From: a virus
Taxonomy: Duplodnaviria > Caudoviricetes
Strand: one strand, 5' to 3'
DNA: 64,000 nt
IMG/VR virus record: IMGVR_UViG_3300002307_000018
Span: 200,638 to 264,637 of that record
This document shows positions 16,519-17,619 of this stretch, piece by piece. Within the stretch, counting starts at the first letter, position 1, and every line of letters starts with the position of its first letter. The notes under the pieces are model-generated. The model had not been told where the DNA came from. It saw only the letters and a list, made by a program, of their open reading frames with translations, and did not search any database. A program made the translations under genes and the position numbers.

Positions 16519-16634
16519 ACCATATTGAAATACACTACAACTCTGGCAACACGATTTACACTCTTAAATGAGATACGTCATCGGGCTTTCCTAGGAACCC
16601 TTTCCAGTCTTAAGGTAATGTACTTCAATATGGT
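16519..16634 (-). ncRNA. conserved-stem ncRNA, copy B
   Basis: ACCATATTGAAGTACATT...AGTGTATTTCAATATGGT. Confidence 0.7.
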
Positions 16635-16700
16635 CATCACTACTGAGAATCGAACTCAGTTGGCCAGTCTGCGCTAGACTGAGAGATACGCTCGGTGATA
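16631..16700 (-). ncRNA. minimal tRNA-like RNA (GCG in loop)
   Basis: perfect T-arm CTGAG-TTCGATT-CTCAG, 8-bp acceptor-like stem, CAGTC-TAGCGCA-GACTG arm, no proper D-arm, ends ACCA. Confidence 0.5.
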
Positions 16701-16740
16701 AATTATCTTACCTTTTCTCTTGCCTCACCATTATGTGATT

Positions 16741-16813
16741 ACCATATTGAAATACACCAAACTACTTAGGCCGCGATAGGGGCCATTGTTCATCTGATGT
16801 ACTTCAATATGGT
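16741..16813 (-). ncRNA. conserved-stem ncRNA, copy C
   Basis: ACCATATTGAAGTACATC...GGTGTATTTCAATATGGT. Confidence 0.7.
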
Positions 16814-16908
16814 GTCGATTGGCCAAGATCAACAAGAATAAACCTAGCTCTGTTTCCATGGTTCAAAGCATCTAGTCTCACCAGTGACTTTTCGTCTATT
16901 CTTACTTA

Positions 16909-17028
16909 CCATATTGAAACACTCTGTCATTTCAGACTATACACCCTTGCCAGATGTCAACCATAATAGGTTCCTGTTAATTCAGGTACTGTAAAACTTC
17001 TTTCATAAAGTTTTGTGCTTCAATATGG
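16909..17028 (-). ncRNA. conserved-stem ncRNA, copy D
   Basis: CCATATTGAAGCAC...GTGTTTCAATATGG enclosing about five short hairpins. Confidence 0.65.
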
Positions 17029-17151
17029 CGTCCTATCGTCGTTTCCGGACAATTGGCGGTCAAGCCACAGCCCTTCATCTATTGTCGAACTCATGCGATT
17101 CTGTTTGGGGTCCGGTGTGACTAGCAACGACCTCCCTCCCGATCTACACTC

Positions 17152-17278
17152 AAACCATATTGAAATACACTCTTTAAACAAGTTTATCGGCACTGCCTCT
17201 TGTTGCGGCTGCTCACGGGTTTATCATATTTTATAATAATAAACGCTGCCTTATACTGAATGTACTTCAATATGGTTT
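17152..17278 (-). ncRNA. conserved-stem ncRNA, copy E
   Basis: AAACCATATTGAAGTACATT...AGTGTATTTCAATATGGTTT. Confidence 0.7.
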
Positions 17279-17389
17279 CTATTGTGGGACTCGAACCCAC
17301 AGTTTGCAACGGTTTCGATGAGTTTTATCTCATCGGAGGGTTTAAGCGTCCCGCCGCCGTCTGCGTCTACCTTTACCGCTATTATAAAC
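17273..17389 (-). ncRNA. tRNA-like RNA with expanded anticodon domain
   Basis: Leu-type D-arm (GCGGTAAAGGTAGACGC), stem GACGG/CCGTT enclosing 44 nt, T-arm GTGGG-TTCGAGT-CCCAC, ACCA end; weak acceptor stem. Confidence 0.55.
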
Positions 17390-17390
17390 A

Positions 17391-17478
17391 CCATATTGAA
17401 ATACACTATCGTGATTTGCGCCCCACCCGACACTTCCCGCCGGTACCGCTCTCTCCACGTTAATGTACTTCGATATGG
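17391..17478 (-). ncRNA. conserved-stem ncRNA, copy F
   Basis: CCATATCGAAGTACATT...AGTGTATTTCAATATGG; G-rich interior. Confidence 0.65.
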
Positions 17479-17619
17479 CAACTACCGTTCGACCAAGGGC
17501 GTGTGACCATTGCAGCCAAACAGTAGTTAATCCATTGCCTAGATTGTGCGTTTACATCTGCTAGGCGCAGGTGGTCAACCGTAGCACAATACGTCTTGTA
17601 GTACTGAGTACTTCAAAGG

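What the first reader, a model, noticed from the sequence alone, without database searches (positions are those of the whole stretch)
16631..17529. Alternating array: RNA ending in NCCA, then a conserved stem that base-pairs with that CCA
Seen in sequence: copies B-F all begin with (A)CCA and end with UGG(U). In each case the CCA is also the 3' end of an upstream structured unit: 16631..16700 and 17273..17389 (tRNA-like), 16811..16907, 17026..17151 (GUCGUU/AACGAC and CCGGAC/GUCCGG stems) and 17476..17528 (10-bp AACUACUGUU/AACGGUAGUU helix plus GCCA). In the precursor the UGGN therefore masks the CCA, recalling T-box UGGN-NCCA pairing. Inference: a maturation or gating device controlling release of CCA-tailed, possibly aminoacylatable, tRNA mimics.
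Basis: partly seen in the sequence, partly recalled or inferred. Interest (0 to 1): 0.72.

Follow-up and report, generated by a model that had tools for sequence, protein, structure and literature searches.

The report
Stalk-and-cargo RNA cassettes in phage tRNA operon
Inside the tRNA operon of an uncultivated giant phage, five copies of one conserved ~20-bp RNA hairpin stalk, each holding a different small structured RNA, alternate with other small RNAs whose CCA ends form the base of the next stalk; the element is widespread in environmental phages, matches no Rfam family, and most likely marks where the long transcript is cut.

Summary
The repeated unit is a closed cassette. A 17-28 bp stalk (5' RCC-AUAUUGAAGUACAUU ... 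AGUGUAUUUCAAUAU-GGU 3') encloses a variable cargo of 17-139 nt.

- **In the window:** five cassettes alternate with five other small RNAs at 16520-17534. Four more lie elsewhere in the window. The first follows a consensus sigma-70 promoter and an exact boxA 12-mer.
- **Beyond the window:** I found 117 distinct cassettes in 44 of the viral-contig loci scanned, 40 more metagenome stretches, and none in 185,579 prokaryote genomes or in Rfam.
- **Support:** covariation supports the helix. In 30 cassettes the stalk starts exactly at A76 of a canonical tRNA.
- **Limits of the CCA rule:** RCC/GGU is not obligatory (65 of 117), and only about 4% of the tRNAs carry a stalk.
- **Evolution:** cargos are conserved families, and stalk sequence evolves in concert within each phage.

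Best reading: an rrn-like polycistronic operon whose stalks are double-strand processing handles, probably for host RNase III. This is inferred, not shown. T-box-like gating of aminoacylatable mimics is not supported. Other first-stage readers noted the same stalks on this genome.

The parts
18911..18939 (-). Consensus sigma-70-type promoter (TTGACA, 17 nt, TATAAT) heading the non-coding operon
   Evidence: 12 of 12 hexamer matches; sequence read
18872..18883 (-). boxA-like antitermination box GCUCUUUAACAA, 9 nt upstream of the first stalk
   Evidence: The only exact match in the window. Related CGYTCTTTAAAAA boxes precede the first cassette in relatives L013, L019, L020, L022, L023, L027, L031, L034 and L039. 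Identity with rrn boxA rests on established knowledge.
18775..18865 (-). First cassette of the operon (type I stalk, flanks CGCA/UGCG, 51-nt cargo); no RNA and no CCA upstream
18589..18770 (-). Second cassette, variant stalk AUAUUGAAACUCAUUG/CAGUGAGUUUCAAUAU, 136-nt cargo
18405..18512 (-). Third cassette, variant stalk UUAUUGAACACAU/GUGUGUUCAAUAA; its cargo ends in a T-arm directly under the stalk (tRNA-like cargo class)
   Evidence: fold z = -4.9; cargo homolog in L040
17620..17704 (-). tRNA-Tyr; its trailer begins CCUUUGAAGUAC, a lone degenerate 5' arm
17476..17534 (-). Unit F: 55-59 nt hairpin ending GCCA, with a loop core that is invariant across phages
   Evidence: fold z = -3.35; the 18-nt loop core is exact in 29 viral contigs
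17391..17478 (-). Cassette M1 (stalk with one C.A mismatch, 52-nt cargo)
   Evidence: fold z = -6.55
17273..17390 (-). Unit E: tRNA scaffold (3-bp D stem, T-arm, ACCA) whose anticodon loop holds a two-hairpin insert
   Evidence: Homolog in L033 has a canonical acceptor stem and ACCA. ARAGORN calls both tRNA-Ser(cga) with a 37-nt intron, but only in intron mode at a lowered threshold.
17155..17275 (-). Cassette M2 (85-nt cargo, conserved in L039)
17026..17154 (-). Unit D: conserved small RNA ending GCCA
   Evidence: 94% identical homolog in L019 and a partial homolog in L013. A 114-nt unit family in L010, L015, L031 and L034 shares its ...CGACGAUAGGRAMCC 3' end. Its fold is not above shuffles (z = +2.1).
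16909..17028 (-). Cassette M3 (stalk carries a compensatory U-A to C-G change; 88-nt cargo conserved in L013)
16810..16908 (-). Unit C: conserved small RNA ending ACCA
   Evidence: 90% identical homolog in L032, where it is followed by a collapsed, cargo-less stalk
16742..16812 (-). Cassette M4 (29-nt cargo)
   Evidence: fold z = -7.9
16631..16741 (-). Unit B: tRNA-derived RNA (T-arm, 7-nt-loop hairpin, 9-bp closing helix GGUAAUCAC/GUGAUGACC) ending ACCA
   Evidence: T-arm and hairpin covary in L023 and L040; the L023 copy ends ACU-A
16520..16633 (-). Cassette M5 (76-nt cargo; the same cargo sits right after boxA in L034)
   Evidence: fold z = -5.4
16350..16507 (-). tRNA-Asp and tRNA-Glu closing the array
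13048..13132 (-). Isolated cassette between tRNA-Lys and tRNA-Met; stalk flanks UU/AA, with the CCA of tRNA-Lys lying upstream of the stalk
   Evidence: fold z = -7.1

Best explanation
The region is part of one long non-coding minus-strand transcript of an uncultivated jumbo phage. Its order is promoter, boxA, cassettes, tRNAs, cassettes alternating with small RNAs, then tRNAs.

The repeated element is a stalk-and-cargo cassette. A roughly 20-bp double-stranded stalk of near-constant sequence closes a cargo RNA that differs from cassette to cassette. The base of the stalk is RCC-AUA paired with UAU-GGU. Whatever RNA lies upstream, whether a real tRNA or another small RNA, donates its RCCA end to the helix.

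Most likely the stalk is a common double-strand processing handle, as in ribosomal RNA operons. A double-strand-specific endonuclease, most probably the host's RNase III, would cut both arms. That would split the polycistronic transcript into the cargo hairpins and the inter-stalk RNAs. The short AU-rich stubs would then melt and be trimmed back to CCA. Until that cut, the upstream 3' end is held in duplex, so processing is ordered.

Shown here: the cassette anatomy, the strand, the helix by covariation, the precise junction with A76, the boxA-led operon, the spread among phages, and the conservation and reshuffling of cargos.

Inferred: that the stalk is cleaved, by which enzyme, and what the cargos do.
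For: **Helix**
- Median length 20 bp, range 17-28, in 117 cassettes.
- In alignment A3, 91.6% of cells pair against 83.1% in shuffles. Thirteen of 21 pairs change on both sides. The covariation score is 0.337 against 0.176 (0 of 500 shuffles reach it), and slid controls give at most 0.13.
- The wobbles sit on the tRNA strand only.
- All five stalks form in the fold of the whole array.

**Operon**
- A consensus promoter and an exact boxA 12-mer lie directly before the first stalk. No terminator-like site was scanned on the minus strand from there to tRNA-Glu at 16350.
- All cassettes lie on the tRNA strand inside tRNA arrays.

**Junction**
- In 30 cassettes an ARAGORN tRNA ends exactly at the first A of the stalk, across 9 isoacceptor families. 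A blunt 3' hairpin of this kind needs an endonuclease to be removed (established knowledge of 3' exonucleases).

**A low-specificity reader**
- Several stalk sequence variants coexist within one phage, for example L052, L055 and L058. What they share is helix length, the CCAUA/UAUGG base and the AYAUU/AGUGU top. This fits a structure-reading enzyme.

**No dedicated phage enzyme found**
- RNase III, TROVE (Ro) and Lactamase_B_2 (the RNase Z fold) were each absent from G000 and from four or five other cassette-bearing records, including the 95%-complete G001. Lactamase_B_2 was also absent from three further records at least 98% complete.
- A CCA-adding enzyme was looked for in G000 only and not found.

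**Length fit**
- RNase III substrates are about two helical turns, and the enzyme leaves 2-nt 3' overhangs (PMC6212723, PMC1540722).
Against: - No RNA ends are known. No RNA-seq data for this phage could be used.
- The canonical E. coli distal-box pair UA/UG (PMC1540722) is not present in that orientation. The host is unknown and is probably not E. coli.
- Only about 4% of tRNAs in these arrays carry a stalk, so the stalk is not needed for tRNA maturation as such.
- Cargos are conserved and show compensatory changes. The cassette is therefore a functional RNA in its own right, and the stalk may be kept in the mature RNA.
- Three features are more than a generic RNase III site needs, and they would also fit a dedicated stalk-binding protein: the sequence conservation of the base and top, the fixed non-Watson-Crick pairs (G.U at 9, U.G at 14, A.C at 6 in type II), and the concerted evolution of stalk sequence within each phage.
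Confidence: 0.45

Rival explanations
1. The stalk is the binding platform of a dedicated RNA-binding protein, of phage or host. The cassettes would be mature ribonucleoprotein RNAs: one universal adaptor helix presenting many different cargos, some of them tRNA-like, in the way Y RNAs present effector modules on a Ro-binding stem.
For: - One stalk serves more than 20 unrelated but individually conserved cargo families.
- The base and top motifs are conserved, with non-Watson-Crick pairs at fixed positions.
- Stalk sequence is homogeneous within a phage while orthologous cargos sit on different stalk types in different phages. This is as expected if the stalks co-evolve with a phage-specific partner.
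- A large cargo class ends in a T-arm stacked on the stalk, recalling YrlA (PMC4201824).
Against: - No TROVE (Ro) gene in six cassette-bearing records (G000-G005), one of them 95% complete.
- No Y_RNA match above the Rfam cut-off.
- The stalk 5' strand reads AUUGAAG rather than GNCGAAN0-1G (PMC4201824).
- No candidate partner gene is specific to stalk-bearing phages. The DUF458 RNase H-like gene is present in 5 of 5, but it also occurs in cultured tRNA-rich phages without stalks.
- Several stalk variants coexist in one phage.
Confidence: 0.22
2. One reading: the UGGN strand masks the NCCA end to gate the release or charging of CCA-tailed tRNAs and tRNA mimics. This would act in cis, analogous to T-box or RNase P L15 pairing with RCCA.
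For: - RCCA is fully paired with UGGU in 65 of 117 cassettes.
- The stalk begins exactly at A76 of 30 canonical tRNAs.
- GGU pairing with RCC is the same contact that RNase P RNA and T-box leaders make (established knowledge). A sequestered RCCA should therefore delay 5' maturation of that tRNA.
Against: - The same stalk works without any CCA: after boxA, and beyond tRNA-Lys with other flanks.
- The flank pairs covary like ordinary helix pairs.
- Some orthologous units end in UCA or CUA.
- There is no T-box model hit.
- The units' own 5' GGU can pair with their 3' ACC, so the pairing is not unique.
- Most tRNAs of the arrays lack a stalk.
Confidence: 0.1
3. A DNA-level element: a palindromic mobile or recombinogenic repeat (MITE- or REPIN-like) that spreads in tRNA arrays, or a hotspot that shuffles cassettes, with no RNA function of its own.
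For: - The same cargo plus stalk occurs in different flanking contexts in different phages.
- Stalk sequence is homogenised within genomes.
- L032 holds a collapsed stalk without cargo.
Against: - The flanks are complementary and extend the hairpin. They are not direct target-site duplications.
- Wobble pairs occur on the tRNA strand only, and all copies share the orientation of the tRNAs.
- Compensatory changes keep the helix intact.
- Interiors are unrelated between copies, though each is conserved across phages.
- There were no copies outside tRNA operons, and none in 185,579 prokaryote genomes.
Confidence: 0.08
4. The cassettes and CCA-ended units are decoys. They would be either multiple double-stranded binding sites that titrate host RNase III, or many CCA ends and tRNA-like folds that soak up host defence enzymes attacking tRNA.
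For: - Many copies sit in a strongly promoted operon.
- A tRNA-repair gene trio lies in the same region: Rnl1-like ligase, P-loop kinase and metallophosphoesterase. This shows that the phage expects attack on its tRNAs.
- Binding-competent but cleavage-resistant helices are known for RNase III (PMC1540722).
Against: - There is no direct evidence.
- Decoys would not need conserved, structurally covarying cargos of many kinds.
- The CCA ends are paired rather than exposed in the precursor.
Confidence: 0.07

Closest known systems
RNase III processing stalks of bacterial rRNA operons (promoter, boxA, long-range stems enclosing 16S and 23S, tRNAs in the spacer)
   Same: - A polycistronic untranslated operon led by a strong promoter and boxA.
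- Perfect helices of about two turns enclosing stable RNAs.
- tRNAs in the same transcript.
   Different: - Here one short stalk sequence is reused for more than 20 different small cargos.
- The stalk closes 17-139 nt, not 1.5-2.9 kb.
- The base of the stalk is built from the RCCA end of the preceding RNA.
- Cleavage has not been shown.
Stable RNAs of the phage T4 tRNA cluster (species 1 and 2; RNAs C and D), of which species 1 is cut by RNase III (from memory of the 1970s literature; not retrieved here)
   Same: Small stable RNAs of unknown function co-transcribed with phage tRNAs and matured by host nucleases, including RNase III.
   Different: - T4 has two such RNAs and no shared stalk.
- No sequence similarity was found. 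The phage collection gave only tRNA matches.
tRNA-miRNA encoded RNAs (TMERs) of murine gammaherpesvirus 68
   Same: - An alternation of tRNA-like RNA and hairpin.
- The tRNA 3' end abuts the hairpin.
- Maturation combines tRNA-end processing with an RNase III-family enzyme.
   Different: - A eukaryotic Pol III system with Dicer.
- The hairpins there yield miRNAs.
- There is no homology. This is an analogy of design only, from established knowledge.
Bacterial Y RNAs (YrlA, YrlB, Yrn1) bound by Rsr/Ro60
   Same: - A conserved terminal stem plus a variable module that can mimic tRNA.
- Several per locus.
- Also found in phages (PMC4201824).
   Different: - No Rsr gene.
- The stem motif differs.
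- No Rfam Y_RNA match above threshold.
- Here the T-arm sits in native tRNA order directly under the stalk.
T-box leader / RNase P L15 pairing with tRNA RCCA
   Same: A UGGN or GGU strand pairs with NCCA or RCC of a tRNA 3' end.
   Different: - Here the pairing acts in cis, as the last 3-4 pairs of a 20-bp helix.
- There is no specifier, no antiterminator-terminator switch, no downstream regulated gene, and no Rfam hit.

Membership tests
T-box riboswitch | Match to the T-box covariance model (Stem I, specifier loop, antiterminator with the conserved T-box sequence) | tested here: not met
   No RF00230 hit at the gathering threshold in the window, nor at E up to 10 in 12800-19200
T-box riboswitch | UGGN in an antiterminator bulge pairs in trans with NCCA of uncharged tRNA and controls a downstream gene | tested here: not met
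   The UGGU is the end of a 17-28 bp helix acting in cis. What follows is another small RNA or a tRNA, not a regulated ORF.
RNase III processing stalk (rrn type) | Regular double helix of about two turns without large internal loops | tested here: met
   Median 20 bp, range 17-28, at most one internal mismatch, n = 117; covariation
RNase III processing stalk (rrn type) | Lies within a polycistronic stable-RNA transcript with promoter and boxA antitermination signal | tested here: met
   Promoter at 18911-18939, boxA at 18872-18883, then cassettes and tRNAs on one strand
RNase III processing stalk (rrn type) | Cut by RNase III in both arms, leaving 2-nt 3' overhangs | not testable with these tools
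   No usable RNA data. No phage RNase III gene. The host is unknown.
Y RNA / YrlA | Encoded next to a Ro60/Rsr (TROVE) gene | tested here: not met
   PF05731 is absent from G000 and from five further cassette-bearing records, one of them 95% complete
Y RNA / YrlA | GNCGAAN0-1G motif in the 5' strand of the stem (PMC4201824), or a match to Rfam Y_RNA | tested here: not met
   The stalk reads AUAUUGAAG, with AUAUCGAAG in only 3 of 82. The best RF00019 hit in the genome is 14 bits, elsewhere in the record.
tRNA (units B and E) | Cloverleaf recognised by ARAGORN or the Rfam tRNA model | tested here: not met
   Not called at default settings, nor at E up to 10. E is called only with intron search at a 90% threshold, as tRNA-Ser(cga) with a 37-nt insert at 32/33.
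tRNA (units B and E) | T-arm, acceptor helix and 3' NCCA kept in orthologs | tested here: inconclusive
   E: the L033 ortholog has a regular acceptor stem and ACCA, while the window copy has a weakened stem. B: the T-arm covaries, but the L023 copy ends ACU-A and the 7-nt loop lacks U33.
MITE / REPIN-type palindromic mobile element | Target-site duplication or orientation-independent spread; conserved interior | tested here: not met
   The flanks are complementary, not direct repeats. All copies are on the tRNA strand and inside tRNA operons. Interiors are unrelated between copies.

The most novel reading that the evidence does not exclude
The stalk is a universal adaptor read by a dedicated, still unidentified protein. 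The phages use it to produce and present a library of small RNAs, including tRNA-shaped cargos and CCA-ended minihelices. These would act on the host's tRNA-handling or tRNA-targeting defence machinery. That would make the cassettes a phage RNA 'presentation system' with exchangeable modules, whose stalk co-evolves with its reader within each phage lineage.
Probability: 0.15. Interest if true: 0.85.

Novelty: new variant of a known kind. Interest (0 to 1): 0.68.

Why it matters
Phage tRNA arrays are usually annotated as tRNAs plus unexplained spacers. In a whole clade of environmental, mostly large, phages those spacers hold an organised family of small RNAs built on one shared double-stranded stalk. 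The stalks are driven by an rRNA-style promoter and boxA leader and are fused with base-pair precision to tRNA 3' ends.

If the stalks are processing sites, they show how a phage cuts a multi-kilobase non-coding transcript into dozens of RNAs using host enzymes.

If they are protein handles, they define a new class of phage ribonucleoproteins with swappable cargos.

Either way, the family yields more than 20 conserved cargo and unit RNAs of unknown function to test, including tRNA-shaped ones. It also gives a simple sequence signature for finding them in metagenomes.

Tried and rejected
- **RNA evidence.** No RNA holder was listed for 16300-18950. The one run laid, kept as contigs and only guessed to be RNA, gave a single 161-nt contig at 16794-16951. 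It says nothing about ends or expression.
- **Cultured relatives.** blastn of the array, and of a related array from L058, against 50,697 phage records gave only tRNA-level matches. tblastn of an 849-aa window protein gave nothing.
- **Known RNA families.** Rfam at the gathering threshold and at E up to 10 gave only tRNAs for the window. For 15 related loci it gave only tRNAs and tmRNAs.
- **Dedicated nuclease or partner.** RNase III, TROVE, PolyA_pol and Lactamase_B_2 were not found. DUF458/YkuK is present in all five records tested. It is also present in 77 cultured phage records. The closest of these, Stenotrophomonas phage DLP6, has the gene inside its tRNA array but has no stalk cassettes. 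I therefore dropped it as a stalk-specific partner.
- **E. coli RNase III distal box (UA/UG).** It was not found in the right orientation in the stalk (my reading against PMC1540722).
- **Permuted or split tRNA reading of unit plus next unit.** The 8-bp pairing across M5 is simply an outward extension of the stalk.
- **Protein-coding reading.** The mechanical ORFs 17015-17236(+), 17251-17481(-) and 17282-17506(+) cross cassette and unit borders that are reshuffled between phages. I rejected them.
- **Literature.** I found no paper describing this element. A catalogue of candidate viral structured RNAs (PMC10690425) may contain it, but I could not check that.
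Full report
**Setting.** The window is the last 64 kb of a 264,637-base IMG/VR virus record that CheckV rates 74% complete, so it is a jumbo phage. ARAGORN finds 31 tRNAs between 2358 and 24990, all on the minus strand. Rfam finds nothing but tRNAs. The finding (16631-17529) lies between tRNA-Tyr (17620-17704) and tRNA-Asp (16431-16507). I read everything on the minus strand.

**Anatomy.**
- The repeat finder shows two direct-repeat families. They are reverse complements of each other and strictly alternate.
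- On the minus strand each 5' arm (CCAUAUUGAAGUACAUU) pairs with the next 3' arm (AGUGUAUUUCAAUAUGG) across 29-89 nt. This gives five closed cassettes, M1 to M5. They are separated by five other RNAs, F, E, D, C and B in transcript order.
- The order of arms is 5', 3', 5', 3' and so on. It starts with a 5' arm and ends with a 3' arm. An isolated 5'/3' pair also sits between tRNA-Lys and tRNA-Met at 13048-13132. The arms therefore enclose the cargos, not the units.
- The fold of the whole 1.3-kb array forms all five stalks. Single cassettes fold with z = -5.4 to -7.9.
- Three more cassettes lie at 18405-18865. Genome-wide, the cassettes occur only in this tRNA region and only on the minus strand.

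**RNA level, not DNA level.** Stalk positions 9 and 14 are G.U and U.G on the tRNA strand, in 73% and 80% of 82 cassettes. They would be A.C mismatches on the other strand. On an alignment of 35 diverse cassettes:
- 91.6% of cells pair, against 83.1% in shuffles.
- 13 of 21 pairs show changes on both sides.
- The covariation score is 0.337 against 0.176, reached by 0 of 500 shuffles.
- Sliding the partner strand by 1-3 columns drops the score to 0.13 or less.

The helix is 17-28 bp with a median of 20.

**The CCA observation.** All five units of the array end in NCCA, and that end forms the first pairs of the next stalk. In a wider sample of 117 distinct cassettes from 44 loci:
- The three nucleotides before the stalk core and the three after it are RCC and GGU in 65 cassettes.
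- In 30 cassettes an ARAGORN tRNA ends exactly at the first A of the stalk. The tRNAs are Lys, Gln, Glu, Leu, Val, Pro, Ala, Thr and Ser.
- In 6 more cassettes a tRNA ends 1-12 nt upstream.

It is not obligatory, however:
- The first cassette of the operon has flanks CA/UG and no upstream RNA.
- The cassette after tRNA-Lys has flanks UU/AA or UC/GA, with the CCA lying upstream of the stalk.
- The flank pairs covary like any other helix pair.
- Only about 30 of 739 tRNAs in the loci are followed by a stalk.
- The units begin with GGU and end with ACC. These ends can equally close the unit itself, as in B (GGUAAUCAC/GUGAUGACC), in E and in F. The CCA need not be a free tail.

**The units.**
- *F* is a stable hairpin (z = -3.35) whose 18-nt loop core is exact in 29 viral contigs.
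- *B* has a T-arm and a hairpin with a 7-nt loop. Both covary in L023 and L040. The loop lacks U33, and the L023 copy ends ACU-A.
- *E* is a tRNA scaffold with a two-hairpin insert in the anticodon loop. Its L033 ortholog has a regular acceptor stem plus ACCA. ARAGORN calls both copies tRNA-Ser(cga) with a 37-nt intron at 32/33, but only in intron mode at a lowered threshold. I treat that as a lead, not a finding.
- *C and D* have close homologs in one and two related phages (L032; L019 and L013). A further unit family shares D's 3' end. Neither folds better than shuffled sequence.

**A family.**
- Exact-arm scans found the cassette in about 35 IMG/VR contigs and in 40 metagenome stretches.
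- They found none in one genome each of 185,579 prokaryote species.
- Loci fetched through unit F, independently of stalk sequence, show stalk variants, for example AUAUAAAAACACAUU/AGUGUGUUUCUAUAU with an A.C at position 6, AUAGUUGAAUACAUU and AUAUUAAAGUAUAUU. The CCAUA/UAUGG base, the AYAUU/AGUGU top and the helix length are kept.
- The array upstream of tRNA-Asp is syntenic in several phages.

**Cargos and units are modules.** Cargos fall into conserved families. One shows compensatory changes in two hairpins. The same cargo occurs with different neighbours in different phages, and the same holds for the units. A large cargo class ends in a T-arm placed directly under the stalk. Orthologous cargos at 81-98% identity sit on different stalk types in different phages, while within a phage most stalks share one type. 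The stalk therefore evolves in concert within a genome. L032 holds a collapsed stalk without cargo.

**Operon context.** A 12-of-12 sigma-70 promoter (18939-18911) is followed by the exact 12-mer GCUCUUUAACAA (18883-18872) and, 9 nt later, by the first stalk. That 12-mer is the core of the rrn boxA (established knowledge). Relatives have a similar box before their first cassette. An earlier first-stage note suggested this, and I verified the sequence.

**Mechanism.**
- The design of promoter, boxA, regular two-turn helices enclosing stable RNAs, and tRNAs in between is that of an rRNA operon. There, RNase III cuts the stalks (established knowledge; cleavage rules in PMC6212723 and PMC1540722).
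- A blunt hairpin fused to A76 cannot be removed by 3' exonucleases, so an endonuclease is needed.
- I found no phage RNase III, Ro or RNase Z-fold gene in the cassette-bearing records tested. One of these is 95% complete (all three families), and three more at least 98% complete were tested for the RNase Z fold. No CCA-adding enzyme was found in G000.
- I therefore rank host RNase III processing first, at 0.45.
- The conserved base and top motifs, the fixed non-Watson-Crick pairs, the concerted evolution and the conserved cargos keep a dedicated stalk-binding protein in play (0.22).
- Masking of CCA as the purpose (0.10), a DNA-level element (0.08) and decoys (0.07) follow.
- Nothing here shows cleavage, RNA ends or charging.

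**Comparison with known systems.** The element works most like rrn processing stalks. By design it resembles the tRNA-hairpin units of murine gammaherpesvirus 68. It is not a T-box, a Y RNA or a MITE by the features tested (see the membership table). It has no Rfam family, and I found no description of it in the literature searched.

**Verdict.** This is a widespread, apparently undescribed phage RNA cassette family. I class it as a new variant of a known kind (processing stalks), with a real chance of being something more.

Noticed in passing
window 8924-10943 (-): A tRNA-repair gene trio next to the tRNA arrays: T4 Rnl1-like RNA ligase (8924-9976), P-loop AAA_33 kinase (9906-10325) and calcineurin-like metallophosphoesterase (10335-10943). 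The phosphoesterase family recurs in 13 related loci.
   Followed up: partly
window 1047-1550 (-): A DUF458/YkuK RNase H-like protein (PF04308). It is present in 5 of 5 cassette-bearing phage records and in 77 cultured phage records, those listed being mostly large (about 146-250 kb), for example Vibrio nt-1-like, Roseobacter DSS3P8-like and Stenotrophomonas DLP6. In DLP6 it sits inside the tRNA array. It looks linked to phage tRNA arrays in general, with function unknown.
   Followed up: partly
window 17273-17390 (-) and L033:3945-4075 (-): Unit E and its ortholog could be an intron-bearing tRNA. Removing 37 nt leaves a CU-CGA-AA anticodon loop in the window copy. This is an ARAGORN call in intron mode at a lowered threshold, with the insert at the unusual position 32/33.
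   Followed up: partly
window 17705-17918 (-): A roughly 200-nt conserved non-coding stretch between tRNA-His and tRNA-Tyr (core ACAUAAGAUAGCGAC..GUAAGGCACGUGACUGAAAAAUCGCCGUAA). It is homologous to the 187-290 nt units that follow tRNA-Tyr or tRNA-His in L013, L019, L023, L027 and L039.
   Followed up: no
L032, sense-strand unit after the cassette at 106 (row L032_214_329): A collapsed stalk, CCAUAUUAAUAUGG, with no cargo directly after a unit-C homolog. It looks as if the cargo was deleted between the arms.
   Followed up: no
L034:8258-8602, L031:8496-8776, L022:5838-6269, L020:4826-5042: Related phages carry a permuted (two-piece) tmRNA gene: Rfam tmRNA_permuted up to 111 bits, and beta_tmRNA at 92.8 bits in L034. 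Together with a TctC/Bug-family periplasmic receptor ORF in the window (15457-16332), this hints at betaproteobacterial hosts.
   Followed up: no
G000:C1:167895-167907 (outside the window; L106 about 597-609, minus strand): A 13-nt stretch complementary to the invariant loop of unit F lies 30-45 nt into a 121-aa ORF. The chance expectation is about 0.05, so it may be coincidence or an antisense target.
   Followed up: partly
window 18098-18258 and 16350-16507 (-): Two tRNA-Asp plus tRNA-Glu pairs bracket the stretch that holds tRNA-His, tRNA-Tyr and the cassette array. The Glu copies share a 33-nt stretch at 67% identity (family D3). This suggests an old segmental duplication.
   Followed up: no
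window 18268-18384 (-): A short ORF of about 38 codons with a hydrophobic tail and its own Shine-Dalgarno-like AAGGAAAC, lying between the third cassette and tRNA-Asp inside the otherwise non-coding operon.
   Followed up: no
window 11460-12236, 20459-21403, 29062-29808 (-): Auxiliary metabolic-type genes interspersed with the tRNAs: a TauD-family dioxygenase, a radical SAM protein and a fatty-acid desaturase.
   Followed up: no
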